Positions 1-47,720 of a DNA stretch of 64,000 nucleotides are shown here, piece by piece. The DNA lies in assembly GCA_963693365.1 (NCBI GenBank), contig CAVNZM010000003.1, positions 965,506-1,029,505 on the forward strand, in the 5' to 3' direction. The stretch is from Amoebidium appalachense (taxonomy: Eukaryota; Protista; Ichthyosporea). The notes beneath the pieces were generated by a model that was not told the DNA's origin, did no database searches, and worked only from the letters and a program-made list of their open reading frames with translations. Numbering within the stretch: position 1 is the first letter of the stretch; each line of letters begins with the position of its first letter. Made by a program: the position numbers and the translations under genes.

Positions 1-2
1 CG

Positions 3-137
3 CGCGACAAGGGCACGCGCGCACAGACCCAGAAGGAAAAGGAAAAACGAAAGGCTCGGCAACTCAAAAAACTGGTGTTTGAACACCAACAGGAGCAAGT
101 GGGTCTGAGGCGCAGCGCAAGGCGTGCACGCCTGTAG
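3..137 (+). CDS. 3' end of an upstream ORF entering the window (basic, charged tail)
   Basis: Frame 3 is open from the window edge to TAG at 135-137: RDKGTRAQTQKEKEKRKARQLKKLVFEHQQEQVGLRRSARRARL*. Same strand as the downstream cassette genes. Confidence 0.35.
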   Translation, partial: RDKGTRAQTQKEKEKRKARQLKKLVFEHQQEQVGLRRSARRARL

Positions 138-278
138 GGTGTGGCCTCCCATTTCGGAAAAACCACCCGTCTTGAAAAAAAAAAAACAAAGACGCCCCAC
201 CAACCGGCTGCCTTCAAAACTAGCCCAAATGGGTAACTGCCATATCAGGCTAATCGCCCATGTGCGGGCCGCTGGCCC

Positions 279-370
279 TGACCCGACCCGGCCTTTTCCG
301 GGTCGCCCCGACCCGATTCGACCCTGCCGCGACCCGACCCGGCTTGATGCGGTCCGACCCGACCCGGCCC
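279..370. repeat. Cluster of GACCCGACCCGG / CGACCC motifs
   Basis: gacccgacccggcc, cccgacccgattcgaccc, gacccgacccggc and cgacccgacccggccc, plus one inverted gggtcg, lie directly upstream of the MTase ORF. Confidence 0.8.
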
Positions 371-411
371 GTGGCCTGTGAAATTTTGGCTGCCCACAGG
401 TGCGGATCATC

Positions 412-966
412 ATGGGGCTGGGCAGCTGCTGCGGGGTGTACAAGGCATGTACACAGGACAAGAGGAAGGCCGGAGTGGACACTGACAAGGTGCAGACACC
501 AGCATGGGTGCTGGATGCACTCGAAAAGGAGTTTGGCGCACTCAATGACCCCTGCCCCATCACCTGGCGGGAGGGGGAGGACCCTTGCGCACTCACAGAC
601 GACGACGTGTGGTCCACCGAGAAAATAAACTATGTCAACCCTCCCTTCTCTGAGATTCCCCCATTTTTACGCATGGCCATACGGATGTACATATCCAAGG
701 GTAGAAAGAGCGTGCTGCTCGTGCCTGCACGCACGGAGGCACGCTGGTTCCATGACCTGGCGTTCAGGTACGCCGCAGAGATACGCATCCTGAGGGGTAG
801 GATCAAGTTTGAGGGGTTCAAGAGGTCATCCCCAGAGGGCGTGTGCCTGCTTTTGTTCACAGAGCCTCAGCCTGTCGGTGGCCCGCGTGTAGTGCACGTG
901 TCGTGGATGCCTGAGGCATACCCGCGCAGCTCAAAGGCAGGGGCCGTGTTGGGGCTGGATTTCTAG
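412..966 (+). CDS. Phage Dam-family DNA N6-adenine methyltransferase (~184 aa)
   Basis: Motif order typical of the phage N6-adenine MTase family: D-x2-QTP, EFG..DPC, W....YVNPPFS (NPPF/Y catalytic motif IV), VLLVPART...WFH, EIRILRGRIKF. First ATG at 412 (the ORF track starts at GTG 400). Confidence 0.9.
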   Translation: MGLGSCCGVYKACTQDKRKAGVDTDKVQTPAWVLDALEKEFGALNDPCPITWREGEDPCALTDDDVWSTEKINYVNPPFSEIPPFLRMAIRMYISKGRKSVLLVPARTEARWFHDLAFRYAAEIRILRGRIKFEGFKRSSPEGVCLLLFTEPQPVGGPRVVHVSWMPEAYPRSSKAGAVLGLDF

Positions 967-1037
967 CTTAAGATCTACTTAGTGTAGGGTCTAGATCATA
1001 AAAATGTGTGTTAGAGTGTATGTAGTGCGTGCACACC

Positions 1038-1301
1038 ATGGCCAACACCTACCAAATCGTGCTGAACGACCAGTTTCAGCCCCTCACTGCGCGTACGTCA
1101 AACGCCACGCACACAGACTTTAGCTACTATGGCCAGCAGGCGATGGCACAGGCCGTTGCGGACAAGATATGCCCGCACGGTACCCGCCACCCCTTCTTCC
1201 TCAAACCAAGCACCATGGCAGGGTCTGCAGCAGGCCGATTTGCTCGCCCCAGACCCACCTTTGCGGCACTCAGGCGTGCACATGGCAGGCCCATGCACTG
1301 A
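1038..1301 (+). CDS. Small hypothetical protein (87 aa)
   Basis: ACCATGG start context. Non-repetitive ORF filling the gap between the MTase and the next gene, with AATAAA-like signals after the stop. Confidence 0.5.
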   Translation: MANTYQIVLNDQFQPLTARTSNATHTDFSYYGQQAMAQAVADKICPHGTRHPFFLKPSTMAGSAAGRFARPRPTFAALRRAHGRPMH

Positions 1302-1399
1302 CCGTTAGTGTACGTAGTAGGCCATGGCCAAGCGGGCAATTGGCAACCAATAATAAAAAATATTGTGCATGCATAAGTAAACGTGCAAGTCACGTCACC

Positions 1400-1984
1400 A
1401 TGGGGGTGTCATCGCAAGGCAGGAGCGGCAACACGCGTGTCATCTACGTGCAGAACCGGCCAAACAAGGCCTCAGAGGTAGCCAAGTGGGTGGGGGCCCT
1501 GGCGGGCGGTGCTGCCTTGGGGGCAGGGGGGTACTATGCATGGAAGCACAAGGGGGACATTGCGAGGGGGGTGGGCAACTACATGTACAACAAGGCTGCG
1601 GATGCTGCCACCTACACTGCAGGGAAGGCGGGGGAGGCGGGGGGGACGGTGTTCAAGGGCCTCAAGGGGGTTGCCCGTGCCACAGGCGATGCTGCCATGC
1701 AGGGCACGCAACGTGCAGGGCAGGGCGCGCAGAATGGTGCATTCAGTGCGTGGAAGACCCTGAGGAATGGCACGAGGGATGTGGGCAACTACCTGCTGCA
1801 CAACACCCAGAATGCGTTGGGATTTGGGCCGTCCATCTCAAACACTGCAGGCACGCGCGCGGGAAACAGCTATGAGTGGAGAGGGGGCGGAGGGGGCGGC
1901 ACACAGGTGCTGGTGGGCGGCAAGCCCTACGTCTGGCCGCCTACCAAACCTCCGAACGTCTCCGGCCGCGGCATCCCTAATTGA
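1400..1984 (+). CDS. Gly/Ala-rich basic protein with a hydrophobic segment; possible virion or membrane-active protein (194 aa)
   Basis: ACCATGG start at 1400, in frame with ORF 1169-1984. MG N-terminus, WVGALAGGAALGAGGYYAW hydrophobic stretch, then amphipathic Gly/Ala/Lys repeats. GC-rich third codon positions. Confidence 0.7.
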   Translation: MGVSSQGRSGNTRVIYVQNRPNKASEVAKWVGALAGGAALGAGGYYAWKHKGDIARGVGNYMYNKAADAATYTAGKAGEAGGTVFKGLKGVARATGDAAMQGTQRAGQGAQNGAFSAWKTLRNGTRDVGNYLLHNTQNALGFGPSISNTAGTRAGNSYEWRGGGGGGTQVLVGGKPYVWPPTKPPNVSGRGIPN

Positions 1985-2235
1985 GAAAAACCATATTTGG
2001 TAAGTTGGAGCAAAACAGTGCGAGAGGGTGTTCTGATTGGTGGATCTCCTGCGTTCCTATTGGATAGCTTTTCGCGAAGAATTTGAAAAGAGTCACCTTC
2101 CTGTGCAAAGTCTGGAGCCAACTGCAGCATGCGTGACCGAAGGGCACAAAGAGGCGCCCGTGGGCGATGTTTTTTTCCCAAAACTCTAACCCACTCTAGC
2201 CTACTTTCTTGCAAACAGCAAACTTCTTGAAAAAA

Positions 2236-3282
2236 ATGGAAGACTTTGACTACTACCCTCCTACCCTAGCACCCCTTACTAGCAATCCTGCAGCCACTGC
2301 CGCCGCTGCTTCTGCTCTTGCCGCCCCTGGTCGCCCTATTTCACCTCTGCCAGACCTGGAAATAGATCTTCCCACGGACCGCCGCACCTTTACCTGGGCG
2401 GGTGACGAGGGCGCCTCTGCTGTGGTTTCCTGCTACAACATCCTGCTGGATGGCTACCTTGCGGGTCTCTATGCATCTCTCATCCCCAGGCAGCGTGCCT
2501 CTGAGAGGTTTGGCGACTTCACGCTGGGCTACAATGCAGGGGGGTGTGCGTTCTACCGGCTGCACTCCATGTGCCCGGGCAGCCCTTGCAAGATGTGGTT
2601 TTTTGAGATGCTGCTGTGCTGCCTCTTCACACCACAGCAGGTGCTCGAGCACTCTACCAACGTATCCCTGTTGGTTTGCGCGTGCACCAATGTGCTCATG
2701 CTTGAGGGGGTGGCTGAGTCTGCGGCAAGGACCCTCCTGCAAGAGTTCCCCACCTATGACCATGCCTACAAGCATGAGCAGGAGCTGAATGACTGGGTGT
2801 GGGTGCGCGATGATCTGCGTCGGCTGCTGCGTCGGCTGGAGAGTGCCTGGGACGACATCGCCAAGGTCATCAACCGGTCTGAGCATCCTCGGCTCTCTCA
2901 GCGTGAGAGTGAAGATGTGGCCAGGTGCCTGGGTGTGGTTGTGGCGTGCTTCCTGCTGACCATGATGGTCACTGTAAGAGCAACACTGTCCAAGTCTGCC
3001 CCCTTCTTCAGCGAGTCTGCCCTGTTTGTCCTGCAGCAGATGCAGGCCCTTCTCAAGGGGTTTGCTGGTGACAGCGAGACTGAGAGAGCCAAGATCATGT
3101 TTGCTGCGAGGATCTCAAAGGCCATCAAGCTGAAGCACAAGTCTCCCTATAGGGCAACCAAAACCATTAAACCCAAGACCCCACAGGGCAAGGAAAACGT
3201 TGCCCCCCTCAGCAGCAGCAGCAACATGGGTGGTGCCCCCTACCGTTTGCCAAGTGGACGCCGTGGCAACAACAACTACTAG
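2236..3282 (+). CDS. Hypothetical protein (348 aa), mostly helical with a basic C-terminal tail
   Basis: Long intronless non-repetitive ORF with codon bias like its neighbours. AAAATGG start at 2236. No family motif recognised. Confidence 0.75.
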   Translation: MEDFDYYPPTLAPLTSNPAATAAAASALAAPGRPISPLPDLEIDLPTDRRTFTWAGDEGASAVVSCYNILLDGYLAGLYASLIPRQRASERFGDFTLGYNAGGCAFYRLHSMCPGSPCKMWFFEMLLCCLFTPQQVLEHSTNVSLLVCACTNVLMLEGVAESAARTLLQEFPTYDHAYKHEQELNDWVWVRDDLRRLLRRLESAWDDIAKVINRSEHPRLSQRESEDVARCLGVVVACFLLTMMVTVRATLSKSAPFFSESALFVLQQMQALLKGFAGDSETERAKIMFAARISKAIKLKHKSPYRATKTIKPKTPQGKENVAPLSSSSNMGGAPYRLPSGRRGNNNY

Positions 3283-3566
3283 GCAACCATAGTGGTTAGG
3301 CTAGGCACTCTTTAGTGATCATGATGATGATGCATATGGTGGACTGTGCCCACTATTTTTACGTTTTCTTTTCCCTCTCAGCTTGAACTTATAAGTATAG
3401 ACACTCTGGTTGTGAATATATTGGGTATAAACCCTATATTTCTACGTTTTTTTCGTTTTTTTACAAGACAACCGACGGCAAAAATAAACTTTTTATCTTT
3501 TACGAAAGATCCAAAAAAACAGAATTCAAGTTGAAGACTACTATGGTGCAATGCACACGTGTGCCT

Positions 3567-3569
<3 letters not shown>

Positions 3570-3654
<85 letters not shown>

Positions 3655-3775
3655 CAAAAGACTAACGAAAATCTATGAAGATTTTAACGAAGAAATAAAA
3701 AATAAAAATAAAAATAAAAACCAAAGGCAACCAACAATCACCCTACCACACCCTTCTACGTGTGCATGCATGCGT

Positions 3776-3835
<60 letters not shown>

Positions 3836-3846
3836 ATGTGTGTGTG

Positions 3847-3885
<39 letters not shown>
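3570..3885. repeat. Two (TG)n microsatellites between convergent cassette genes
   Basis: TG runs at ~3570-3653 and ~3780-3885. Confidence 0.95.
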
Positions 3886-3886
<1 letters not shown>

Positions 3887-3887
3887 T

Positions 3888-4862
3888 CTAAATGTTGCTG
3901 TTTGGCCCGTGGGGTGGCTCTGCCACAACCACTTGGTAGACCTTCGCGGTCTCCGATGTTTCGGGCCTCATCCGTTTGTTGTCACGTTCCGTGACAACGA
4001 GGCTGAACAGTTTGGACTTGATGCCCTCGTTAAGGGCCGTCAGAATGTCCCGTGCCGTTTCCTCCACCCACAGGCGATCCATCACCTCGAACAGGAAGTT
4101 GTGCACAAGTCGTTGCAGGTTATCCCGCAGCCCTCGTTCCTTGTGCATTATGCGGGGGTGGCAGTTTGGGGGTGAGACCATCCAATCGACCGTGATAAAC
4201 TCGACGTACTTCTTCGACTCCGACCACGTCGTGTCGACAAACGTGATGAATCGCCTAACGTCGTTAATGTTATCGTCGTCGAAAACTCTCGGGGACACCG
4301 AGTCCAGGAAACCACCCACACGGCCTTCGTACACGTACAACCCCCATGCATCCCCCTCGGCCCACTTCACTAGTTCCCCCAAGTCTCTCTTGAACCGTGT
4401 CTCGTGCCCATCCTCATAGTTGGGTGCGGTGATAGTGAACGTCCATTCCCCCTGCTCGTTGATTTCCCCCTTAAAAATGTCCGTGCCTAACACTTGGTTG
4501 AGACGTCCTGGTAGGGCCTTCTTTTCCTCCATCGACCACGTGCCTGTGTGTGTGTTCACCTTGGTAATTGCACGTTCCCGCTCCATCACTTCGTCCTCGA
4601 AAAACTGCCATACTTCCACCCTCTCCATGCTCGTCTTGGCCCAGTCGGCAATCATCTCCCTATAGGTGGGTGAAACGGGGCGTGTGACCCACTCTTTAGT
4701 ACGGTGATTGTAGTACCTGTAGGTACCGTTGAAAATGTGCAGGTGGGGTTGGGCTGCCACGTCGAGATAGTGGCCAAACATGTGTTGGTTGGTTGCTTTT
4801 CTTATGAAGGGGGGACCAAGTTCGAGGTCGTCCTCTGAGGAATCAATACGATGAGAAGACAT
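3888..4862 (-). CDS. Hypothetical protein (324 aa)
   Basis: Intronless complex-sequence ORF rich in W/F/E, with an AT-rich upstream region. No family recognised. Confidence 0.75.
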   Translation of the reverse strand: MSSHRIDSSEDDLELGPPFIRKATNQHMFGHYLDVAAQPHLHIFNGTYRYYNHRTKEWVTRPVSPTYREMIADWAKTSMERVEVWQFFEDEVMERERAITKVNTHTGTWSMEEKKALPGRLNQVLGTDIFKGEINEQGEWTFTITAPNYEDGHETRFKRDLGELVKWAEGDAWGLYVYEGRVGGFLDSVSPRVFDDDNINDVRRFITFVDTTWSESKKYVEFITVDWMVSPPNCHPRIMHKERGLRDNLQRLVHNFLFEVMDRLWVEETARDILTALNEGIKSKLFSLVVTERDNKRMRPETSETAKVYQVVVAEPPHGPNSNI

Positions 4863-5248
4863 GTTGTTGTGTGGTGATTGATTGTTCTAAGTCTCACTGA
4901 GTAAAAGGATGGTGTGGTGTCTTTTAAAAGTCTTTATTCTGTGCGAAAAGAGATGATTGTGAAAATGTTTAAGAGTTTTTTCTAAGTTTTTTCTTCACAA
5001 AAAACGAACGAAAACGAGACGAGACTGAGAGAATACGTAATATTACGTAACATTCAATTTCGCTTGATTTCATTGGCTCATAAGTGACGCAAAGTATTTG
5101 GCGCAATCATTTACTCTCTCACTCATGTACGTACCAAGTCAACTCAGTCGCGGCGGCACACAGTGTTTTTTTTTTTTTTTTGGGAAGAAGTTTATTTCGT
5201 GGCATCACCCGGAGGTAAAGAGATTCTGAATAAACAGACATGTGCCTA

Positions 5249-6172
5249 TTACATCCTGAGCATTTTGGCCTTGTCCTCCCCAGGCATGGGCGTGCCAGCA
5301 CGCTTAGCCTGCCCCATGTCTACATCACCCCCCTCCCCCTCACTACCCGCACCATCACTGACCAACTCCATCAGACCATCTAAATCAAACACCTGAACCT
5401 TGCGGGCAACGAGCTTGGTACGCACAGTGTTGCTCTTCTTGTTGTAGATGACACTGGTGGCGGCAGCAGACACCCATGCAGTCACCTCACGGCACCTGGC
5501 ACGCTGGGAGTTCATAAACTCCACAAACTCATCCACAGAGGCTGCGTTGTTGCCCAGCTTGAAGAGGCAGGCGTTGCGGCCAGTGGGGTTGGGGAGCTCC
5601 ACCGTCACGTTGAAGTAGGTGTCGCCCAGTCCCCCCTCCATGTCTGCCTTGCTCACAGGCCCGGCCCCCAGCACCTCGTACAGGTTGGGAGAGTGCTTGG
5701 ACCACAGGCTGCTGTTGATCTTGACAGGCACGGTGTCCACGTCAACCCCCTTGAGCATCTCGTGCTCCTTGTGCATCCACAGCACATCCCTGGCCATGCT
5801 GCAGACGTAGGGCCACAGGTCGACGGCGTAGGCCACCTCAAAGGGCTCGGGGTGGCGCTGCGACTTGATCCTGATGGTGGGCTTGGCGTCCCAGGGAGCG
5901 GTGCTGGGGACCAACTCAATCAGCATCTGCCCGTTGATGTTGATGTTGGGCAGGTTGTACACCTGAACCGCTAGCACGTCGTTGGAAGTACTGGTCCATG
6001 GCAGGCCCAAGGTGGCCTTACCCACGCCGTTGAGGAACACATCCCTGTACAGCGGCATCTTGTCCCCCTCACTGTTGTTGGTGTTTTCTTTGCCACTGCT
6101 TGCCGCGGCGATGCTGGTCCTTTTGACGGTGGATAGACCAGCCCTTTGACGTGTCAGTGTTGGCTTGACCAT
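5249..6172 (-). CDS. Candidate T7 gp2.5 / NCLDV-type OB-fold ssDNA-binding protein (307 aa)
   Basis: ATG at 6172. The C-terminal beta pattern REVTAWVSAAATSVIY..VRTKLVARKVQVFD is followed by an acidic, Gly-rich flexible tail, matching the layout of T7-type SSBs. The ORF is secure; the function is inferred. Confidence 0.5.
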   Translation of the reverse strand: MVKPTLTRQRAGLSTVKRTSIAAASSGKENTNNSEGDKMPLYRDVFLNGVGKATLGLPWTSTSNDVLAVQVYNLPNININGQMLIELVPSTAPWDAKPTIRIKSQRHPEPFEVAYAVDLWPYVCSMARDVLWMHKEHEMLKGVDVDTVPVKINSSLWSKHSPNLYEVLGAGPVSKADMEGGLGDTYFNVTVELPNPTGRNACLFKLGNNAASVDEFVEFMNSQRARCREVTAWVSAAATSVIYNKKSNTVRTKLVARKVQVFDLDGLMELVSDGAGSEGEGGDVDMGQAKRAGTPMPGEDKAKMLRM

Positions 6173-6337
6173 TGTGCTGTTGCTTGGGGGGTGTGGTGAA
6201 CGTGACTGTGGCGTGCACCTCAACAGTGACTGTCTGGCTCATGGTTGGTTGGTGTGATGTTGCTGCCGGAGGCTGTTTATGTACACAGGGTGGTGAGGCT
6301 GGTGCATTTTTGGCCAATGAGTTATTTCTGCGATCCT

Positions 6338-6488
6338 ATTGGATAGAATTGGGATGGAATTTGGAGTACACGTTGCTATTGGATAGCTGGCCGGCAAGTG
6401 GCTCTCCAGATGCTAATTTCCCATTGGATGCGCTTTTTCATTGGATAGAATCGGCCCAAGAATCAGGATCCGAATTCCGATTGGATAG
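6338..6488 (-). promoter_or_regulatory. Cluster of extended CCAAT boxes (CTATCCAAT on the minus strand)
   Basis: ATTGGATAG at 6338, 6378, 6440 and 6480, with ATTGGATG at 6423. The same motif is at 2059, upstream of ORF 2236. Confidence 0.7.
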
Positions 6489-6772
6489 AATTCGAAGGCT
6501 TTCAGATTTCCCGCATTCCTTTGTCAGGAACATGAGTGCGCAGCACATGTACGCGTGCACGTACGCGTACACGTGTTCCGCCCTCTCTCTCTCTTTAATT
6601 ATTTAATCATTTAATTGATACCACGTGCTCTGCACGTGTTTTACACACACACACACACACACAGTGTGTGCACGTGCTCCTGTACATATATCCACCCACA
6701 TCTCATATCCCATATCGCGATATGTGTACACAGATATCGCCATATCTCATATCCACATATCCCATATCCTGA

Positions 6773-6815
6773 GGGGGGCGGGACCGTGTGAATGTGACGT
6801 CACTTGTGACGTCAC
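6773..6815. promoter_or_regulatory. GC box plus two tandem CRE/ATF palindromes
   Basis: GGGGCGGG at ~6775-6783. GTGACGTCAC at 6794-6803 and 6806-6815. Confidence 0.6.
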
Positions 6816-6848
6816 CATTCACGGGGTGCCGCGCCCCTCATTGTAGTG

Positions 6849-6942
6849 CCCAGATATCTCGTCCAATAGGACGGCGGCCCGCTCCACGGATCAGCCAATA
6901 GGGTGCGGTCTGTGGGATAAAAATAGCGCATGCCCTGGCTGT
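6849..6942 (+). repeat. Dispersed repeat module A, copy 1
   Basis: Near-identical to ~37026-37119 (ccagatatctcg..ccaatag..acggcggcccgctccacggatcagccaat..gggtgcggtctgtgggataaaaatagcgcatgccctgg). Confidence 0.9.
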
Positions 6943-7735
6943 GGGCCACTGCTGCCTCCGAGAGTGCAAACGCTTCACTGGCCCTGTGGGGAAAGAAAAA
7001 AAAAAGAGGGGGGGGGGGGGGGGGGGAGTCAGTTCGAATGTACTACATGGGGGAAGGGGGGTTCGGGCATTGTGAGCTTCCTGAAAGAAGGTGGAGTTCA
7101 GGTTTCTAAGGGGGGGAAGGGGGGGAGGGGGGGGGGGGGGGGGGTTTCCGGGGGGAGGGGGGGGGGGGGGGGGGGGGGGGATAGATGGCAACCACTTGAA
7201 TAGAAGGTGGGTCTCGAATAAGCTAAAGATGGGGAAAAGAGGAGAAGCTGGGGATATAATTGGATCGCAGTGGGATTGAAAGTGGGGTAAGTTTCTTTTA
7301 TGGCTAACAAGGGGGGGCTCGAAAGCAAAATCGACACGGGTATTTAGAGGATTAAAGAAGTATGTTGAAGTGAAAATGAAAATAGTGGAAATAGCAGGGT
7401 TTCAAATTGATGTGCCGGGGGGTTTAAGGGGGCCCACGGGGGAGGGAGGGGGGGGGGGGGGGGGGGGGGGAGGGTGGCCGGAAGAGGGAGATACAGCTGT
7501 GGGGGAAGAAATGGACATGGGGCAATTCATAGTATCAGTCTGCAATTCCATCTTTCAAATTGAGATTTCGTGTTTCTTGAATTGCTTCGTAAAAGAACTC
7601 TGGAGTGCCATTTTTTTCTTCTTTTTTTTTTTAATATAAAAAAAGTAGGGTCTTTACAAAATATTCCGTTTTGATTGGCTCGTTCATCAACCCGACCACG
7701 TGTTTGGTGGGTGGTGGTGGTGGTGGTGCCCCCCT

Positions 7736-7766
<31 letters not shown>

Positions 7767-7866
7767 ATCTTAGTTTTTTTTAGGGTCACCCGTATATGTC
7801 ACTGTATGTGTGTCTGTGTGTGTGCTGTTACTTCCATGGTGTGTGTGTGTGTGTGTGTGTGTGGGG

Positions 7867-7897
<31 letters not shown>

Positions 7898-8474
7898 AAG
7901 GTGGGGAAGGATATTTTCAGTGGATACGTGGGTTCCCAAGGTGATGCTCACTGTGTCTAAAGTATGATGCTTCACAAAACGTGCTTCATCTATCATGTAG
8001 CATAGCAGCTTATCAGATCAAGATGTCTAAGTGATATATGTGCACAGTCGGATAATGCAGTTTGAAGAGACTCTGATTTGGGCTCTGTCTGTAAGACCCC
8101 AGCCACTTCACTCAACAGAAATCAACTTGTTGTGCGCTTAGTTAATTTGCAGAAAGAAAAAAAGAAAACTTTGAAATCCTGCTCTGAGCAGATATATTCT
8201 GCTTGCCAATGGGTCAAGTTAATTATTTCTTTTTCTGCTGCCGCGGGCTTAACAATTCTCGCGTTCAGCAGAACAATTCTGCTCTTTGACCTAAATATTT
8301 ATTTTTTCTTTTTGCGGATGATTCTGCTCATTTGAATGCAGAGTTCTGCACAAGGCTGAATAATTTTGCTAGTAGAGCATAATAATCATTCTTTTGCTGA
8401 CTAAATATGCCGACTAGTTATGCCTTATGTGCAAATATTCTTGGCCTACCGAGAGAGGAGAGAAAAATATAACG

Positions 8475-8508
<34 letters not shown>

Positions 8509-9017
8509 AGGAGGGGGAAGAAGGGGGGGGAAGGGGGGGGGGGGGGGGGGGGGGGGGGGAGGGGGGGGGGGGCTGTGACTTCTTTGTGATCCCTTTGAAC
8601 AAAAAATCACAGGCAACGAATAATGATATACAGCATAAAAGGGGGGAAAAAAACGGTTCGCTTGCCATGGTAGACGAAAGGAGTCACTGTGTGCCACGTG
8701 CGTGCAACTGGTTCCATAGACCAGTGTGCGATTTATGATGCGTGCGCGGCATGTGCCCAAATTCTCGCAAAAAGGCACAGTTTTTGTGTGTGTGAGTGTG
8801 TAATATGAATTTGTATTTATTTTAATAGCTTGGGCCCCTATGTACGTGTACAGTGTGCCGGGGTGCGTGTTCGTGGGTGTGTGTCTGTGTTTAACGTGCT
8901 GTGTGTATGTATGCGTGTGTGAGTGTGCGGGTGCGTGCGTTTGCGCGTGTGCTTGTTCTGTGTGTGTATTTGTGTGTTTGTGTGTTTTCTTTCTTTCTTT
9001 CTTTTTTTTTTGAGAGA

Positions 9018-12109: not shown

Positions 12110-13384
12110 ATGCAAGCGCTGGCCAACCACCCACCGACACCCAGCCACACCCGCGTTGAAAAAACCCCGCCCCATGCCTATATTGAGCCCCCCCTCGACG
12201 CTCTGCTGTGCGGCTCCCAGTCGGTTGCCAGCTTTCTGGGCCGGGCGATGAAGGCGCCTCCGAGCCGGTGTGTGGGCGGTGATGGGAACCTGGCGACGGC
12301 TACAAACTCGGGGGGTTACGAGGAGAAAGGGCAACAAAGAGACCTCCCCAGACAACTACATTTGCTGGAACGTGCACCCGATGGGGGTGGGGTGGAAACG
12401 AGCGAGAGGACGGACGGAGAGGGGAGTGAAGTGGAGGGGTGTACACACACGGAAAGGGAGAGGTTACCGGAGAGGGGTGGGGAGGAGAGGGAAGGGGGGA
12501 AGGAAAGAATGACAGCGGGCAGGGTGGTGCGTAGAAGTGAGTTGGGGCAAATAGGCGGTCAACAGACGGCGAACATGCATGAAGAGGTTGAAAAGGGGAG
12601 GCCGGGAAAGACGTTTTCGGGGCTGATGGACTCGGCGCAGGCAAGAGAAAAGGGTGGGCGGGGGCTGTCCGAACTGGTACTACAGGGGCCCAACAGGGAA
12701 AACATGAGCGCAGGTGTGCCGGGGGCTCAAACATCGCCTCTGTCTATGGTGAGTAGGGGGAGTGGGACGGCGCTCACGAGAACAAACTCGGCGCTTCGAC
12801 CACAAATATCGCCAACACCACTCGCTCCGTCAACATTTTCACCGATAAGGGAAGATGCATCACCGGGCATCAACCAAACGCAACCTACGGAAAGTGATGA
12901 GTTCCCTTTGGAAAGAATATTGGGGATAGAGTTGCAACCGATGCCGGAAACCACAACAAACACGACGCTAGGGGAGATGGTTGCGGGGGACGTTTGTGAA
13001 TCTTGCAATCAAGCGATAGAAGCGGATGTTGTGGTAGGGGGGATGGGTGAGGAGAATGAGACGGGGGATGAGGATGGTTTTGTGCTTTCGCCCGTAAAGG
13101 GATGTTGTGGGAAAAGCGCGAGTGACCCAAGCGGCCACGCGGTGCAGAAGCCTACGCGAGCGACAAATAGTTCAGACGGGGGGAAAAAGGTGCGGTTTAT
13201 GGAGGCAAACAACACGACACACCTGATATCGTTTGATGGGGAGAGCAGGAGAGGGGCGTGGGGGGGCGTGGGAGAAGCGAAGAAAACGGAGAAGGGAAAG
13301 AACGAGGCGATGTACAGGGAGGCGGCGGAACAACATAACGAGTTGAAGAATGTGTTTGATATGATCGATGCGTATATCCCGTAG
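12110..13384 (+). CDS. Disordered hypothetical protein or large terminal exon with a KKVRF (RVxF, PP1-docking-like) motif
   Basis: 424-aa non-microsatellite ORF rich in G/E/S/T/P, ending GGKKVRFMEANNTTHLISF and a short helix. The true start is unresolved; the frame is open from ~12008. Confidence 0.6.
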   Translation: MQALANHPPTPSHTRVEKTPPHAYIEPPLDALLCGSQSVASFLGRAMKAPPSRCVGGDGNLATATNSGGYEEKGQQRDLPRQLHLLERAPDGGGVETSERTDGEGSEVEGCTHTERERLPERGGEEREGGKERMTAGRVVRRSELGQIGGQQTANMHEEVEKGRPGKTFSGLMDSAQAREKGGRGLSELVLQGPNRENMSAGVPGAQTSPLSMVSRGSGTALTRTNSALRPQISPTPLAPSTFSPIREDASPGINQTQPTESDEFPLERILGIELQPMPETTTNTTLGEMVAGDVCESCNQAIEADVVVGGMGEENETGDEDGFVLSPVKGCCGKSASDPSGHAVQKPTRATNSSDGGKKVRFMEANNTTHLISFDGESRRGAWGGVGEAKKTEKGKNEAMYREAAEQHNELKNVFDMIDAYIP

Positions 13385-15572: not shown

Positions 15573-16077
15573 GTTTGACCATGTTATTTGCCTGTTAATG
15601 GGTTAAAACGGCTCGAGTGCCTACTGGCAGGTGCCTGTGAGTTCCTTAAATCCAACCTAGGCTTACTTCTAGTTTCGGAAATTCCAGAAATTTAGATCAT
15701 CCGAATAGAAATATTGTGAATTTAGATAATCCGAATATTGAGATATCCCAGATATCTGTATCAGATATATATGTTTGAGGCCTGGGCATCTTGTTCAATC
15801 GGAGTGCTCGTGTGTGTTTTTATATGTGTTTGCGTGTGTATTGGATAGGCGAACGAGCGGGAGCGTGTATGTGTGGGGGGGTGGGGGGCTGGGGCACAGA
15901 GGGTGGGTGGGTGTTGGGGGGGGGGGAGGGGGGGGGGGGGGGGGGGATTATAGTAGTATGTGGAAATTCTAAAGCACACACACATACAGCTCGAGTCTAG
16001 AACACAATAAAAAAATTGTCAGCTGAGATAGTACACTAGGTCTAGAGTGATACACGTTCGGCCATTAACATTTTCAA

Positions 16078-17170: not shown

Positions 17171-17227
17171 CTATGAACTAGGATCCCCCCCCCCCCCCCC
17201 CCCCCCCCCCACGTCCAACAAAGGGGG

Positions 17228-20200
17228 AAGTGAAATACTTACGCATACTTTGCCAGTAAAACGGGCAGTGTAATGCCAACGCATACTTAGCACGTCAAAC
17301 CGGGCAGAGAAATACCCACGCATACTTCGCACATAAAACAGGCGGTGGAATACCAACACATACTTAGCACGTAAAACAGGCAAAGAAATACCAATATATA
17401 TACATACTTCGCACCTCAAAACTGGCAGAAAATTACCAACACACACTTCGCGCGTAAAACTGGCAGTGGAACACAAACGCATACTTCGCACATAAAACGG
17501 CTAGTGGAATACCAACACATATGGCGCACATTAAACGGGCAGTGGATTACCAACACATACTTTACACGTTAAACGGTTGCCAACACATACTTCGCACGTT
17601 AAGGGGCGGTGTATAATCCATGCATACTTCGCACGTAAAACAGGCTGTGTAATTCCAACGGATACTTCGCGCCTTTTAAAACGGGCAGACAAATACAAAC
17701 GCATACTTCTCACACAAAACGGGCGGTGTAATTCATACGCATACTTCGCACGTAAAACAGGCAGAGAAATACTAACTCATACTTCGCACGTAAAACGGGC
17801 AGTGTATTTCCAATGCCATACTTCACACTTAAAACAGGCAGAAAAATACCAACACCTACTTTGCACGTAAACCGGCCGGTGTAATTCCAGCGCATACTTT
17901 GCACGTAAAACAGGCGGTGTAATACTAAGCCATACTTCGCACATCAAAACGGGCATAAAAATTCATACGCATACTTCGCACGTAAAACTGGCAGTGTAAT
18001 ACCAACACATACTTCGTACGTAAAACGGGTAGTGGAATTCCAACAAATACTTTGACGTCAAAACGGGCAGAGAAATACCAACACATACTTAGCACGTAAA
18101 ACGGGCGGCGTAAAACCAATGCATACTTCGTATGTCAAAACGGGCATAGAAATACCAACATATGCTTCGCACGTTAAATGGGCGGTGTAATTCTAATGCA
18201 TGCTTCGCACGTAAAATGGGCCCGGGCAAAGAAATACCACCGCATACTTGGCACGTAAAACGGGCGGTGGAATACCAACACATACTTCGCAGGTCAAAAT
18301 GGGCAGAGAAATATCAACACATACTTCGCACGTTAAACGGGCAGTGGAATACCAACGCCTACTTTTCACGTCAAAACAGGTGGTGCCACAATACCAACGC
18401 ATACTTCACATGTAAAACGGGCAGTGGAATACCAGCACTTACTTTGCAAGTCAAAAACGGACAGAGCAATACTAACACATACCTCGTACGTCAAAACGAG
18501 CATCGAAATACCAACACATACTTAAAATGTAAAACGGGCAGTGAAACACCTACACATCAAGGCTTCACACGTAAAACAGGAGTGGAATATCAAACTTTGC
18601 ACTTCAAAACGGGCAGAGAAGTACCAACATATACTTCGCACGTCAAAATGGGCGGAGTAATACCGACGCATACTTCACACGTAAAATGGGCAGGGAAATA
18701 AAACTCATACTTCGCACATAAAACGTGCAGCGGAATACGAACCGAAACTTTGCACATCAAACCGGGCAGAACGTACTACTGAACAACACATACTTTGCAC
18801 GTAAAAATGGCAGTGGAATCCTCCCAACGCATACTTCGCACATCAAAGCGGGCAGAGTAATACAGACACATACTTCGCACGTCAAAACGGGCATTGAAAT
18901 ACCAACGCATTTTTCGCACGTAAACTATTTAGTGGAATAGTAACACATGCTTTGCACGTAAAACGGGCAGTGCATTACCAACGCATGGTTCGCAGTGAAA
19001 ACGGGTAGTGTAATACCAACGCATGCTTCACACATAAAACGGGCACTTTAATCCCAACGCATACTTCGCACGTAAAACGGGCAGTGTAATACCGAAGCCT
19101 ACTTTGCACGTCAATACGGGCAGAGAAATTCCAACCACACTTTGCAAGTAAAACGGGTGGTGTAATTCCAACGCAAAAGTCGCACATAAAATGGACAGAG
19201 AAATGCCAACGCATACTTCGCAAGTAAAACAGGCAGTGGAATACCAACACAGCTTCGCACGGAACGGGTAGTGGAATACCAATGCATACTTCGCACGTCA
19301 AAACTGGCAGAGAAATGCCAACGCATACTTTGCACGTAAAACGGGCGGTGTAATTCCAACGCATACTGCGCACGTAAAACGGGAAGAGAGATACCAGCAC
19401 ATACCGTGCTTGGCGCTTAAAACAGGCGGTGTAATACCAACACATATTTCGCACGTAAAACGGGCGGTGTACTGGTAATTCCAAAACATACTTCGCACGT
19501 AAAACGGGCTATGAAATTCCAATGCACACTTCACACGTAAAACATGCAGTGTAAGTCCAACGCATACTTCACAGGTAAAACAGGCAGAGAAATACCAATG
19601 CATACTTCGCGCGAAAAACGGGCGGTGTAATTCCAACGCATACTTGGCACGTAAAACGGGAAGAGAAATACCAACACATACCGTGCTTACACATATTTCG
19701 CACGTAAAACGGGCGGTGTACTTGTAATTCCAACACATACTTCGCACGTAAAACCGGCAGAAAAATACCAACGCATATTTGGACGTAAAACGTGCGGTGT
19801 AATTCCAACGCATACTTCGCACTTAAAACAGGCAGAGAAATACCAACGCATACTTTGCACGTAAAATGGGCAGCCTGAGAAATACCAGCACATACTTCGC
19901 ACGCAGTGTACTAATTCCAACGCATTCTTCGCACATAAAACGAGCAAAGAAATACCAACGCATACTTGGCACGTAAAGTGGGCGGTGTAATTCCAACGCA
20001 TACTTCGCACGTAAAACGGGCGGGGAAATTTCAAAGCATTCTTCGCACGTAAAACCGGTTGTGTAATTTCAAAGCATACTTTGCACGTAAAACGGGCGGT
20101 GTAATTCCAAAGCTTACTTTACACGTAAAACGGGGAGAGAAATACCAACGCATACTTCGCACGTAAAATGGGGGGTGTGATTCCAACCCACACTTTGCCT

Positions 20201-22880
20201 GTAAAACGGACAGAGAAATACCAGCCCATACTTCGCACGTAAAAAGCGCAGTGTAACACGTAAAACGGCAGAGAAATGCCAACACATACTTCGCACGTAA
20301 AACGGGCAGTGTAATTCCAACACATAATTTACATGTAAAACGGGCAGCCTGAGAAATACCAGCACATACTTCGCACGTAAAACGGGCGGTGTAATTCCAT
20401 CACATACTATCTCACACGTTAACCTCTAGGGGACCAGACTTTTTGATTCTACCGGCTCTCGGTAGGGACCTAAACAACTCTATTGCGGCTCATAATCGAT
20501 AGAAAAGGCTCAAATAAAATGCATATGCCGACAGGTATATCTTACCTACAAACGTTACTAAGATGGTTTGGGGAAAATATCGTTATTTCGTATACTTTGA
20601 TATCTGTTTCTGAAGTGACTTTCGAGATTTTGAGAAAATCTTGGAGTTGCCATCGAATGTCGACTGAACCGGCCAATCATGTTTTGCCAATTCAAGTTGG
20701 AGCCATTTTCAAAATGGTCTAATCAGAAGATTGCATTGACAGCATTTGGATGTCGTCAAGCCGGCAAGCACCCTTTGTAGATAAACATGGCATATACAAG
20801 GTATCGTTATTAGAGTTAAGTTCCTTTTTTTTTTTTTGCATAACGAAGGATAAGTATATTTTCTAATCACGTGCAACTTTCATTTGGCTAGTTCCAATCA
20901 ACTTCATGTTCACATTAGAGCACAAACTTGGTCGTCTCCGTGCTAGTGACCTCGATCTCGATCTCGTGAAATTTACGGTCCTCAAGATGTTAAATGGACA
21001 GCCTGATAAATTCCAGCACATACTTCGCACGTCATTCGGGCGGTGAGATTCCCATGCATACTTCGCAAGTAAACCGGCAGAGAAATGCCAACGCATACTT
21101 CGCACGTAAAATGGGCAGTGTAATTCCAACACATACTTTGTATGTAAAACGGGCAGCCTGAGTAATACCAACACGTACTTCGCACGTAAAACGGGCAGTG
21201 TAATTCCAACGCTTACTTCGCACGCAAAACGGGGAGAGAAATACCAACGCATACTTCGCACGTAAAATGGGGGGTGTAATTCCAACGCATACTTTGGACG
21301 TAAAACGGGCATAGAAATACCAACACATCCTTAGCACGTAAAACGGGCGGTGTAATTCCAACGCATACTTTGGACGTAAAACGGGCATAGAAATACCAAC
21401 GCATACTTCGCACGTAAAACGGGCGGTGTAATTCCAACGCATACTTCACACGTAAAGCGGCAGGGTAATACCAACGCATAATTCGTGCCACGTAAAACGG
21501 CGGTGTAATTCCAACGCATGCTTTGCACGTAAAACAAGCAGTGTAATTCCAACGCATACTTCGCACGTAAAATGGGCAGAGAAATACCAATGCATACTTC
21601 GCACATAAAAGGCGCGGTGTCATTCCAACTCATACTTCGCACGTAAAACGGGCGGTGTAATTCCAACGCATACTTCGCACGTAAATCGGGCGGTGCTATT
21701 CCAACGCATACTTTGCACGTAAAACGGTCAGAGAAATACCAACGCATACTTCGCACGTAAAACGGGCGGCGTGATTCCAACGAATACTTAGCACGTAAAA
21801 CAGGCAGAGAAATACCAACACATACTTCGCACGTCAAACGGGCAGCCTGCGATATACCAGCACATACTTCGCACGTAAAACGGGCGGTGTAATTCCAACG
21901 CATACTTCGCACGTAAAACGGGCAGAGAAATACCAACCCATGCTTCGCACGTAAAACGGGCGGTGCAATTTCAACCCATACTTCGCACGTTAAACGGACA
22001 GCCTGATAAATATAACGCATACTTCGCACGTAAAACGGGCGGTGTCATTCCAATGCATACTTTGCACGTAAAATGGGCTTTCATGGTTAACCCCCACTCA
22101 TTGGGTTCATTTGGTGGCAAACTAAGTGCCGTGCATGATACTTACCCAATCTAAAGCTCTTTATGGAAATGTTACAAACAATGTTCGTAGATGCATCATA
22201 TCAGAAACAACAAAATACTACCAAATATCACTAACAGAATTTGCATTACTGCCGCTCTGTCCGACAAAGCCATGATCATAATATTTCAGTAAATCCATTA
22301 TAAAAAAAACATTGCGTACTACTAAGTGGTTGTTTTGCGAAGACTTCCAGCGGCTAGTAATCATACCGGGAGTAATACGGTAACAGGCTATATACGGTAT
22401 ATCTGCATACTTCGCACGTGAAACGGGCAGTAGAATAAAAATGCATACTTCACAGATGAAACTGGCAGTGGAATACCAACACATACTTGGAAAGTAAAAA
22501 GGGCAGTAGAATACCAACACATACTTCGCACATAAAACGGGCAGTGAAATACCAATGCATACTTCGTACACCAAGAGGGGTGGTGGAATACCAACACATA
22601 CTTTAAACGTCATAAGGGTCAGTGAAATACCAACACATACTTCGCATATGAAACGGGCAGTGGAATACCAACGCATACTTCGCACATCAAAATGAGCAGT
22701 GCAAATACCAATACATACTAACTTACGTAAAACGGGGGCCGTCGAATACCAACACATACTTCGCACATCAAAAAGGGCAGTGAAATACGAACGCATACTT
22801 CGCACATCAAAAGGGTCGGTCAAATAGTGTTGCATACTTCGCGGTGGAATGCCAGCGCATATTACTTTGCACGTGAAAAG
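17228..22880. repeat. 38-bp tandem array (minisatellite/satellite) in three blocks, roughly 120 units
   Basis: Core CCAACGCATACTTCGCACGTAAAACGGGC joined by linker AGAGAAATA or (A/G)GTGTAATT, often alternating. Blocks at ~17228-20418, 20994-22078 and 22404-22880. Unit count estimated from length. Confidence 0.95.
20423..20989. mobile_element. Non-autonomous piggyBac-like element inserted in the array
   Basis: TTAA at 20419-20422 and 20990-20993. Terminal inverted repeats CCTCTAGGGGACC and GGTCCTCAAGATG match at 10/13. Removing the insert restores cacgttaaa.ggacagcctgataaa, the same unit seen intact at ~21986-22010. Confidence 0.85.
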
Positions 22881-28346: not shown

Positions 28347-30588
28347 TACGAAGCGAAAACTTCAGGGGATTGCCTCAGAGATTTTGTACACGTGTTTCTC
28401 CGAGCTTCGCACGCGGCGGCGGCAGTAGAACCAATCCATGAACGGTTCGGTCCAAACCGCCAGACCGGGGTTTGTAATGTCGAACCAAACCGAACCGTTA
28501 CGAGTCGGTTCAAACCGGTCGAACCATGCATATGTGTCCCTTATGGTTTTCCTGTGTAATTTTCTATGTTTATGCGTGTAGAAGTGTGTGTGGGTGCCTG
28601 TGCGTGTATGTTTAGTGTTTTTGGGGAGCCGTTTTCCAGCGGGGAGTGAACGGTGGTGGGTCCCCCGCCTGAACTTGTTCTACTCGCCCCACCTCCGGCT
28701 CCCTCCCTGGACCGGCCTGGCCGAATCTCCCCGGCCACGGCTCAGACCGGGATGGGGGTTTACGCTGTTTACTCGAGGCAAAGACCGGGATGTCAAACCG
28801 AAATAATGCATTGAGTAGAACTGAAGCCATGAAATGGTCTGATTGGACAAAATGTAAAGGCTCAAAGGACCATTGGCTGGTGCGAGTTGGCACCAATTTA
28901 ATATTTTGTGACGCTCAGGCATGCGCCCCACATAAAAAATGTTGATTAGCCACAAACGTGGGTGCATGCATCTCGCCATCTCAGTGTACTGTGTATGTTC
29001 ATTTATGTGTAACTGCTGACTAAAAAAGGATAACTTATGAATATTTCATATTTCGTTTTTTCTATCTTTCTTTTCTCTTCTTTTTATTTCTTTCTTTTTT
29101 TTGCGGTTCTGATCAGAGAATATGCTGGTCTCTGATGACCGAGCCCAGTGTAGATGTACAAAAAACACATTCCACCTGCGAGTCAGAATTGATATGGGCT
29201 CTGAGCAGAGAGGAATCCACTGATAAAGCTTTGCCCCGTCTACGCCGTCAGGCAGATTACCGTTTTCAATAATGCGAAATTATCTCATTCCCTAACAGTT
29301 TCATATTTTGGACTGGTAAACATTTGGTGGATATTCAGTGTGTTCTGATCTTTCTGAAACAAAATGTGTGATCGTGAGTGAATGTAAACAAACGGCTGGC
29401 TGCGCCAACCCGCTATTCTGTCCTGACACACTTGGAATCGTCCCCCTACACTAATACTTGGGGAAAGTCAGCAAATTTCACAGGAATGCTGTAAAAACAG
29501 CTACCGTTTCACAGCTTTTTTGGGGCGTTGTGTTCCGTAATTAACATTTGATTAGTTTATATATATATATATAGAAGATGTTTTATGCGTGTTATAAAAT
29601 GTAAATATCTTACAAAAGTTGAAAAATTGCTTGTTTTAGTTCCCGATGTACTTGAAGTAACTGTGGGGTACAAGGAATAAAGTTAGGGAGAAAATTGGAT
29701 CACACAGTCCAATTACACTTGGCTGCTTCTTGGTTTTCATTGTTTGTAAGTCATGCATTGCACTTTAGCGTAAAAATTACGTAGACCAGTTAAACCAATC
29801 GGAGTCTTTAAAGTTGTTCGAGAACCGATTCCGATTGGTTATAGACCCCACGACGCCATGTGTTCACCCTATACTACATCGTTACACTGATTTTCCACTC
29901 AGCGATTACACAGGAAAAATGAGGTGACGAACATAACATGAAGTTACCGAGATTCGCAGAGGCTTTATTTAAGTTTATTAATTGAATACTAATATTGAAG
30001 TGTAATAAATGACAAAACGTTCAGTTTAGTGCAAAGTTGTAACATTTCAAGATCGAAGCTGGTTTTCTATCATCAAGATTTGCGAGATGTGATTTGAGCT
30101 CTAGGGGGTTAAGCGCCAGGCTTGAGTCACCAACTTTCCACTGAGGCTGGTCAGTGCAGTTGGGTGTAATTTTTGAAACGTAAGCTTACACCGAAAGTGT
30201 TGGGGTTTGAGTTTACTGTCGTACACGTATTAGTTTTCCTCACTGACTTTCATTGCTACCCCATTCATTGCCTAGTGGCTGCTACCTTTTGCATACGGCA
30301 GAGTTCACCCAAAGTCTTTACGACCCTTCTTCCTTCGCCAACTGCCGAGATTTAGCTAGACAAGGAGAAACATCATCCCACATGCGCACGAGCATAGCAT
30401 AGAGGCGTTGGTATGCGTTATGAACACACATTACTTGCATGTCGGCGCTTTATATTTCAGTGAGCAGCTTCTAACTCCGTATGGCATTCTAGAACATGCT
30501 AGTAAACGCAACATCAACTCCAGCATTTAGTTTCTGATCACATCATAACGTTCACCTGTTGCACTGGGTTTGGCCCAGACGTTTCACC

Positions 30589-46893: not shown

Positions 46894-46928
<35 letters not shown>

Positions 46929-46931
46929 GGT

Positions 46932-46964
<33 letters not shown>

Positions 46965-47036
46965 TGGGGTTGCTAAGGAAAAAAACGAGCAGGGAAAGGC
47001 AAAAAACAACTGGCTAGGCAGCAAGGGCCGTGCGGG

Positions 47037-47108
<72 letters not shown>

Positions 47109-47679: not shown

Positions 47680-47720
<41 letters not shown>

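What the first reader, a model, noticed from the sequence alone, without database searches (positions are those of the whole stretch)
1..6848. End of a probable endogenous DNA virus with a Dam methylase, an SSB-like gene and four orphan ORFs
Seen: six tightly packed intronless ORFs (four +, two -, convergent) with shared promoter motifs, ending at a sharp junction, in a genome whose other genes have microsatellite-filled introns. Known: phage-type Dam MTases are common cargo of Polinton-like viruses, virophages and NCLDVs. Inferred: this is the terminal ~7 kb of an integrated virus, and its mostly unrecognisable gene set may mark an undescribed lineage. The ORFs are intact, suggesting a recent insertion.
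Basis: partly seen in the sequence, partly recalled or inferred. Interest (0 to 1): 0.8.

Follow-up and report, generated by a model that had tools for sequence, protein, structure and literature searches.

The report
Hairpin-ended endogenous virus-like element
This is the end of a mobile element, present in dozens of near-identical copies in a eukaryote's genome, that carries a phage-type DNA methylase and stops at a conserved DNA hairpin; it is likely an integrated Polinton-like virus of a kind already reported from protists, although its capsid and integrase genes would lie outside the window.

Summary
The six intronless ORFs are real, and ORF1 is a phage-type adenine methylase (PF05869). 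Public sequencing contigs show that the stretch is a young multicopy family. Relative to flank depth, the Dam region is roughly 13-31x, the SSB-like gene 30-50x and the terminus 35-100x. Copies share a 71-nt hairpin with compensatory changes and stop at ...TGTAGT (6847; junction 6847-6849), then enter different flanks. ORF4 and ORF5 are low-copy swappable cassettes. ORF5 has a foreign composition. The SSB call rests only on language-model neighbours. No capsid, polymerase or integrase gene is in the window and no genome was held, so membership is untested. Best reading (0.68): the right terminal repeat and adjacent genes of an endogenous Polinton-like/adintovirus-type virus. Dam-bearing ~30 kb elements (44 copies) are described in Amoebidium, and terminal palindromes in Halocafeteria PLVs and virophages. 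Main rival (0.14): a giant CACTA/Plavaka-type transposon; this copy ends in TAGTG, but 3 of 7 junctions seen lack that G. The host is unidentified. Verdict: a real element, probably a new member of a known kind and possibly one already catalogued.

The parts
412..966 (+). ORF1: phage-type N6-adenine DNA methyltransferase (184 aa), with DPCP and NPPF motifs intact and an N-terminal MGLGSCC extension that resembles a myristoylation/palmitoylation signal (pattern recalled)
   Evidence: PF05869 E 1.3e-13; phrog_111 E 1e-24; motifs in alignment A2; extension shared with P0002 (69%) and absent from P0003-P0005
1038..1301 (+). ORF2: small basic orphan protein (87 aa, pI 10.9)
   Evidence: no Pfam or PHROG hit; a contig over 984-1333 has 0 differences at depth 211.6 in X1; pI
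1400..1984 (+). ORF3: Gly/Ala-rich basic orphan (194 aa) with amphipathic stretches; a candidate virion or membrane-active protein (inference only)
   Evidence: G+A 34%, hydrophobic moment 0.56 and two [MLI]xGG-type sites; no family hit; some copies diverge after 1941
2236..3282 (+). ORF4: low-copy accessory cassette (about 1944-3559), 348-aa orphan
   Evidence: contig depth 17.5 (X1) and 74.5 (X2), about 2x flank; ATTGGATAG at 2059; no homologue in viral contigs
3571..3885 (.). Two (TG)n arrays and A-rich tracts at the convergence point of the two gene blocks
3888..4862 (-). ORF5: accessory cassette (about 3897-5032), 324-aa orphan of foreign composition
   Evidence: depth 44.8 (X1) and 220 (X2), 4-8x flank; CGC/GCG o/e 0.32 and other CpG o/e 1.24, against other-CpG o/e of 0.36-0.52 in the other five ORFs; no homologue
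5249..6172 (-). ORF6: putative viral single-stranded DNA-binding protein (307 aa, acidic tail); unproven
   Evidence: ESM Atlas: top three clusters are mostly or partly viral (0.91-0.93); clusters with Pox_I3, DUF2738 and DUF5871 at 0.86-0.88 carry those families on only 10-12% of members. No sequence or fold confirmation
6314..6488 (-). CCAAT-box array upstream of ORF6; low-copy and replaced in some copies
   Evidence: joint 6292->6816 with 58 other letters between in X15
6540..6847 (.). High-copy terminal segment, likely a terminal inverted repeat: palindromes at 6534-6585 and 6712-6745, a (CA)n tract, ATATCCC repeats, then the terminal hairpin
   Evidence: depth rises steeply from about 6542; folds z -3.2 and -2.3; repeats
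6770..6840 (.). 71-nt imperfect terminal hairpin with two GTGACGTCAC palindromes in its core
   Evidence: -35.3 kcal/mol, z -8.3, 0 of 200 shuffles as stable; paired changes 6790 G>T and 6820 C>A at identical contig depth
6841..6849 (+). Element end TTGTAGT(GC); last base shared by all junctions seen is 6847
   Evidence: loose ends and contig ends
6849..6943 (+). Host target: a small dispersed repeat whose uninterrupted paralog at 37015-37119 reads GAGATAT-TCCAG-ATATCTC
   Evidence: 96% paralog; related site at 15737-15757

Best explanation
Positions 1-6847 are one end of a young, multicopy mobile element with a phage-type DNA adenine methylase and a conserved terminal hairpin, and it is likely an integrated Polinton-like (adintovirus-type) DNA virus whose capsid, polymerase and integrase genes would lie upstream of the window. 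SHOWN: multicopy status; one shared end entering different flanks; a hairpin kept through paired changes; a swappable central cassette (ORF4, ORF5); mostly synonymous differences between copies; CpG depletion like that of a transposon in the window. INFERRED: 6540-6847 is a terminal inverted repeat. An element-encoded integrase would insert the genome, here beside the 5-bp spacer of a small host palindrome. After excision the terminal hairpin would serve as origin or primer, or as the integrase site, and ORF6 would coat the displaced single strand. The host would silence copies by CpG methylation. The Dam would protect viral DNA from restriction by co-infecting giant viruses, as proposed for PLV methylases.
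For: Depth against flank (8.5-12 in X1; 27.5-35 in X2): Dam contigs 159 and 859; ORF6 sites about 346 and 1351; hairpin sites 403-610 and 2479-2728. The hairpin-to-ORF6 ratio of about 1.2-2.0 fits two ends per element, though the tool warns that contig depth is not copy number. An X2 contig ends exactly at 6847 and other copies continue into different flanks. Hairpin z -8.3. Of the 31 best-supported coding differences, 18 are synonymous and 0 are stops, against 23% expected, p 3e-5 (one lies beside an indel; 393 further rows were not shown). The Dam indels are in frame (3 and 6 nt). Dam is phage-type: the best 80 IMG/VR loci match at 29-41%, and 5 of the 9 loci whose neighbours I scanned show clear phage genes. 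ORF6's neighbours are viral. Precedents: Dam in ~30 kb Amoebidium adintoviruses, 44 copies (PMC11244446); methylases in over half of 632 PLVs and virophages, with TSDs of 5-7 bp in three integrated ones (PMC7805220); palindromes inside TIRs next to TSDs in Halocafeteria virophages and PLV subtype 4 (10.64898/2026.07.28.741278).
Against: No MCP, A32 ATPase, pPolB, helicase or integrase lies in the window, and the other end is unseen. The SSB assignment is not confirmed by HMM, BLAST or fold. The end 5'-ACTACA is not the AG...CT end I recall for Polintons. This copy ends in TAGTG like CACTA elements. The element carries host-style microsatellites. A higher depth at the end would also arise from truncated copies that share one end. 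The host is not identified (one search was uninformative), so the link to Amoebidium is circumstantial.
Confidence: 0.68

Rival explanations
1. A giant cut-and-paste DNA transposon of the CACTA/EnSpm-Plavaka (CMCT) clade that carries captured viral or bacterial genes. A DDE transposase would bind the subterminal ATATC repeats and cut at CAC...GTG ends.
For: The window copy ends TTGTAGTG (5'-CACTACAA). Comparison with the uninterrupted paralogs leaves G6848 best explained as element sequence. EnSpm termini are CAC..GTG with 3-bp TSDs (PMC12730594). Giant Plavaka elements of 17-19 kb carry an adenine methylase in red algae (10.1101/2025.02.11.637652). Plavaka giant repeats occur in Amoebidium.
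Against: 3 of 7 distinct junctions seen have T or A instead of G after TGTAGT, and an X2 contig ends at 6847 (lists were truncated). Plavaka termini (CATCA..TGATG; TGT..ACA) do not match. The red-algal methylase is PF01555 plus SET, not PF05869. An SSB-like gene and a 71-nt hairpin are not expected.
Confidence: 0.14
2. The end of an endogenous giant virus (Nucleocytoviricota), or of a Mriyavirus-like small relative, with an SSB and a Dam near the terminus.
For: ORF6's neighbours include Nucleocytoviricota clusters and DUF2738/Pox_I3. T7-like SSBs are known in NCLDVs and gamadviruses (PMC11253617). Giant virus insertions are common in some protists.
Against: Dozens of near-identical copies share one precise end, whereas the giant-virus insertions described in PMC11244446 are divergent and incomplete. 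The hairpin is not the centre of a large inverted repeat, as a replicated telomere junction would be.
Confidence: 0.09
3. A Helitron-like or other HUH rolling-circle element whose 3' end is the hairpin followed by TAG, inserted before a T.
For: A hairpin lies just before the end, all junctions read GTAG-T, and the end is over-represented relative to the interior. Helitrons capturing ssDNA-binding genes is recalled, not tested.
Against: The end is GTAG, not CTRR, and the hairpin is 71 nt rather than about 16-20 nt (definition recalled). Reading T6847 as target leaves an unexplained extra G against the paralogs.
Confidence: 0.06
4. Ordinary single-copy host genes.
For: GC content is similar to the host's, and the element contains microsatellites.
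Against: Multicopy depth, a shared end with different flanks, transposon-like CpG depletion (0.47-0.74 in five ORFs against 0.88-1.22 in six host exon stretches), a phage-type methylase and no introns.
Confidence: 0.02

Closest known systems
Amoebidium appalachense adintoviruses (PMC11244446)
   Same: Dam methyltransferase named as a marker; compact, hypermethylated, multicopy insertions with terminal repeats; 44 copies, the same order as the depth-based estimate here.
   Different: Their VLTF3, MCP, mCP and PolB could not be looked for. The text and supplement passages searched do not mention an SSB, a hairpin or swappable cassettes (0 hits for SSB and single-strand in the supplement). Fig. 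S4B is an image I could not see. The host here is unidentified.
Halocafeteria seosinensis endogenous virophages and PLV subtype 4 (bioRxiv 10.64898/2026.07.28.741278)
   Same: Palindromes at the TIR extremity next to the target site, proposed to prime replication; gene modules swapped between copies.
   Different: 52-nt palindromes in the example shown against 71 nt here. Those elements are lower in GC than their host, and the authors found no evidence of 5mC silencing, whereas this element is CpG-depleted.
Polinton-like viruses in general (PMC7805220; bioRxiv 10.64898/2026.06.19.733378)
   Same: DNA methyltransferase cargo, mostly orphan genes, TIRs.
   Different: No relative of ORF2-ORF6 was found; the defining capsid module is untested.
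EnSpm/CACTA and Plavaka giant transposons (PMC12730594; bioRxiv 10.1101/2025.02.11.637652)
   Same: This copy ends ...GTG; subterminal repeats; giant Plavakas can carry an adenine methylase.
   Different: The terminal G is not shared by all junctions; a different methylase family; no transposase seen.
Phage N6-adenine methyltransferases (PF05869, phrog_111)
   Same: DPCP and NPPF motifs; 29-41% identity.
   Different: An N-terminal MGLGSCC extension is found only here and in P0002 among the five aligned; the score is below the TIGR01712 equivalog cut-off.

Membership tests
Polinton-like virus / adintovirus | Double jelly-roll major capsid, minor capsid and A32-like packaging ATPase | not testable with these tools
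   Not among the six ORFs; upstream DNA not held
Adintovirus / Polinton | Protein-primed PolB plus rve integrase | not testable with these tools
   Outside the window
Polinton-like virus / adintovirus | Terminal inverted repeats | tested here: inconclusive
   Only one end seen; terminal depth about 1.2-2.0x that of ORF6
Polinton-like virus / adintovirus | Target-site duplication of 5-7 bp | tested here: inconclusive
   The flank begins at the 5-bp spacer of a 7-bp inverted repeat in the paralog; the left flank is unseen
Polinton-like virus / adintovirus | Integrated, multicopy, intronless genes with a defined end (typical, not diagnostic) | tested here: met
EnSpm/CACTA transposon | Invariant CAC...GTG termini | tested here: inconclusive
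   Met in this copy; 4 of 7 junctions seen have G at 6848 and 3 of 7 do not
Plavaka transposon | Termini TGT..ACA (A) or CATCA..TGATG (B) | tested here: not met
   End reads TGTAGT(G); definitions from PMC12730594
EnSpm/Plavaka transposon | DDE transposase with C(2)C and H(3-4)H motifs | not testable with these tools
   None among the six ORFs; upstream unseen
Helitron | 3' CTRR end with a short hairpin (definition recalled) | tested here: not met
   GTAG end and 71-nt hairpin
Endogenous giant virus (Nucleocytoviricota) | NCLDV core genes (MCP, VLTF3, D5, A32) | not testable with these tools
   Upstream unseen
Dam PF05869 | Score above the gathering cut-off, with catalytic NPPF | tested here: met
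   51.4 against 28.1 bits; motifs
TIGR01712 phage_N6A_met equivalog | Score at least 97.05 bits | tested here: not met
   42.9 bits
Viral OB-fold SSB (Pox_I3 / DUF2738 / T7 gp2.5-like) | OB fold or profile match | tested here: inconclusive
   Atlas leads at 0.86-0.88; model pLDDT 34, so the fold searches are meaningless; no BLAST match to T7 gp2.5; no Pfam hit

The most novel reading that the evidence does not exclude
An undescribed lineage of hairpin-ended integrating DNA viruses, or a virus-transposon hybrid with CACTA-like ends. It would replicate from a 71-nt terminal hairpin, swap accessory genes at a fixed convergence point, and encode a lipid-anchored (myristoylated/palmitoylated) DNA adenine methylase that travels with the virion or membrane.
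Probability: 0.15. Interest if true: 0.7.

Novelty: new member of a known kind. Interest (0 to 1): 0.36.

Why it matters
If it is a Polinton-like virus, it adds a young, high-copy family with three testable details: a terminal hairpin kept by paired base changes, which bears on the open question of how palindrome-ended PLVs and virophages replicate; a fixed cassette slot where a compositionally foreign gene has been swapped in; and a Dam methylase with an apparent lipidation signal. If the host is Amoebidium, the element may be one of the 44 adintoviruses already reported and only these details would be new. If the ends prove to be CACTA-type, it would be a giant transposon carrying viral-type genes, which would be more surprising.

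Tried and rejected
No genome held, so the upstream DNA was not read.

Homologue searches that found nothing useful:
- ORF6: one hit in 1.84 billion representatives, to a repeat-rich 1045-aa protein judged spurious; 0 of 1265 candidates; none in viral or metagenome contigs; no solved-structure match (best E 0.36); one E 0.4 phage match; no match to T7 gp2.5.
- ORF3, ORF4 and ORF5: none in viral contigs; ORF5 none in phages; ORF5's Atlas result is under 0.9.
- Close Dam relatives: none in viral or prokaryote contigs, and no solved relative.
- Exact look-ups: 0 of 7 element proteins and 0 of 2 host ORF versions are in the collection.

Structure: single-sequence models of ORF6 and ORF5 had pLDDT 34 and 37, so the fold searches are uninformative.

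Hairpin pattern: 0 matches in viral contigs. In metagenomes, 120 loci matched, from 9 of 64 parts scanned; none encodes an element ORF and they share only the short core. PF10927 was sought in 50 of the 80 Dam-bearing viral records, with 0 hits and no positive control. The 80 loci hold no ORF2-6 relative.

Host identification by the kinase exon was inconclusive, with best identities of 33-54%.

Empty-site reading rejected: the contigs that carry 6850-6930 with other upstream DNA are paralogs of the flank repeat, and one shares the 6900 A>G change with the 37-kb copy.

Depth in X14 and X15 is very uneven and their contigs contain adapter sequence, so they were not used for copy estimates. No RNA holder was listed, which says nothing on expression. 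No Rfam match. Earlier findings: nothing for this element; one search returned two unrelated notes. Paper searches with no result.
Full report
OBSERVATION. The window starts inside a gene-rich block. Six intronless ATG ORFs lie at 412-966, 1038-1301, 1400-1984 and 2236-3282 (+) and at 3888-4862 and 5249-6172 (-). Three exceed 300 aa; 0 of 200 Markov simulations gave three (mean 0.01), and coding density is about 65%. Simple-repeat content is 3.4% against 10.2% in the rest of the window, but the element holds two (TG)n arrays between ORF4 and ORF5. A host kinase gene at 30.5-33 kb has GT-AG introns with homopolymer tracts. ATTGGATAG occurs 6 times in the window (chance mean 0.36), five of them upstream of ORF4 or ORF6.

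GENES. ORF1 is a phage-type adenine methylase: PF05869 at 51.4 bits against a cut-off of 28.1, phrog_111, below the TIGR01712 cut-off, with DPCP and NPPF intact. Its closest relative is P0002 (69%, from a 1961-nt Logan contig); the other three hits are 34-38%. Both begin MGLGSCC, which resembles a myristoylation plus palmitoylation signal (pattern recalled, untested). The 80 best IMG/VR loci match at 29-41%. Of 9 loci whose neighbours I scanned, 5 show clear phage genes, 3 gave other or unknown families, and 2 had no hit (L150 is counted among the 3: primase-helicase). ORF6 has no sequence relative in any search. In the ESM Atlas its three best clusters (0.91-0.93) are 47-86% viral, and clusters bearing Pox_I3, DUF2738 or DUF5871 on 10-12% of members score 0.86-0.88. 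That makes 'viral SSB' a reasonable lead, not a result; the model was too poor to test it. ORF2-ORF5 remain orphans.

IT IS A MULTICOPY ELEMENT. Of 24 listed runs, 20 hold the stretch or a part of it. I laid 6 of them. The tool warns that contig depth is not copy number, so the ratios below are rough. Flank contigs have depth 8.5-12 in X1 and 27.5-35 in X2. Dam contigs have 159 and 859, ORF6 sites about 346 and 1351, ORF5 44.8 and 220, ORF4 17.5 and 74.5, and hairpin sites 403-610 and 2479-2728. The small run X4 holds the element but none of 7201-9000. A 350-nt contig over ORF2 has no difference at depth 212 in X1, so the family is young. Of the 31 best-supported coding differences, 18 are synonymous and none is a stop (23% expected, p 3e-5; 393 further rows were not shown), and the two Dam indels are in frame. 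ORF4 and ORF5 sit in a low-copy slot between two high-copy blocks, and other contigs leave the window's sequence at 1941, 3449, 3493 and 5032/5033. ORF5 differs in composition: CGC/GCG o/e 0.32 and other CpG o/e 1.24, against other CpG o/e 0.36-0.52 in the other five ORFs. It is likely a recent import. Those five ORFs are CpG-depleted (0.47-0.74) like the transposon at 45-50 kb (0.48-0.71) and unlike host exons (0.88-1.22), as expected if the host methylates repeats.

THE END. Depth rises steeply from about 6542 and falls to flank level after about 6850. The last 310 nt hold three palindromes. The last, 6770-6840, folds at -35.3 kcal/mol, z -8.3, with 0 of 200 shuffles as stable. One variant carries 6790 G>T and 6820 C>A at identical contig depth, which is a compensatory pair; another pairs 6771 G>A with a changed 3' arm (assignment to one contig is inferred from equal depth). 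All seven distinct junctions I could see share TGTAGT at 6842-6847. Four continue with GC and three with T or A, and one X2 contig stops exactly at 6847 (the lists were cut). The flank is a small host repeat with a 96% paralog at 37026-37119, which uninterrupted reads GAGATAT-TCCAG-ATATCTC; a related site lies at 15737. The window's flank resumes at the spacer (CCCAG, 6849), so a 5-bp duplication centred on a palindrome is a sharp prediction for the unseen left end. The contigs that first looked like empty sites are paralogs of this repeat.

HOW IT LIKELY WORKS. The multicopy spread, the fixed end, the conserved hairpin, the cassette exchange and the selection on the ORFs are shown. The rest is inferred. 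The end is about twice as deep as ORF6 in X2 (1.2-1.8x in X1), which fits a terminal inverted repeat. An integrase encoded upstream would insert the genome. After excision the hairpin would act as origin, primer or integrase site, and ORF6 would bind the displaced strand. Host CpG methylation would keep copies silent, and the Dam would protect the DNA from restriction by co-infecting giant viruses, as proposed for PLV methylases (10.64898/2026.06.19.733378, passages). I put this at 0.68, a CACTA/Plavaka-type giant transposon at 0.14, a giant-virus or Mriyavirus-like end at 0.09, a Helitron-like element at 0.06 and host genes at 0.02.

COMPARISON WITH WHAT IS KNOWN. PMC11244446 (section 7 and the first part read, further passages and supplement passages seen; Fig. 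S4B is an image not seen) reports 44 Amoebidium adintovirus insertions of about 30 kb marked by VLTF3, Dam, capsid genes and PolB, and also Plavaka giant repeats. 10.64898/2026.07.28.741278 (section 7 read, other passages seen) reports palindromes in the TIRs of Halocafeteria virophages and one PLV subtype and proposes hairpin priming. PMC7805220 (passages) gives methylases in over half of 632 PLVs and virophages. PMC12730594 and 10.1101/2025.02.11.637652 (passages) give EnSpm and Plavaka termini and an adenine methylase in giant red-algal Plavakas. PMC11253617 (passages) gives T7-like SSBs in gamadviruses and NCLDVs. PMC8502044 and PMC11296320 (passages) were seen for adintovirus and PLV definitions. 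The element looks like a PLV or adintovirus end, but its defining genes could not be tested. The host was not identified, so I cannot say whether this copy is already catalogued. Two searches for this combination of features returned no paper; they cover only the held library.

VERDICT. It is a real, young mobile element, most likely a new member of a known kind of endogenous virus. Interest 0.36.

Noticed in passing
window 17225-22815: A 38-bp tandem satellite in several blocks; the largest has 63.6 copies at about 70% identity.
   Followed up: no
window ~45244-51091 (-): A probable DNA transposon gene with a 3'-5' exonuclease domain (PF01612, E 5.5e-15), CpG-depleted exons and microsatellite-filled introns; family not determined.
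   Followed up: partly
window 30538-32969 (+): A host protein kinase gene with GT-AG introns; relatives at only 33-54% identity.
   Followed up: partly
window 6850-6943, 37015-37119, 15737-15757: A small dispersed host repeat with two CCAAT boxes, a TATA-like box and a 7-bp inverted repeat; it is the element's insertion target.
   Followed up: yes
window 412-432: The Dam N-terminus MGLGSCC, conserved in P0002, resembles a lipidation signal, which is odd for a DNA methylase.
   Followed up: partly
window 5034-5049: A perfect 16-bp palindrome (TACGTAATATTACGTA) exactly at the boundary where the ORF5 cassette is swapped.
   Followed up: no
window 1-137 and 307-371: Open frames run in from upstream, possibly the end of a seventh gene. 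A (CCCGA)n repeat lies upstream of the Dam.
   Followed up: no
window 6536-6631: Run X20, under a fourth organism label, holds two low-depth contigs like the subterminal segment, suggesting a related element in another species.
   Followed up: no
window 6677-6849 in runs X14 and X15: Terminal contigs at depth up to about 2400 run into the same flanks in both runs, one for about 2 kb. This could be enrichment libraries or amplified loci; unresolved.
   Followed up: partly
window 12110-13384 (+) and 60767-61684 (-): Long open frames without a Pfam hit, the second Thr-rich and mucin-like.
   Followed up: partly
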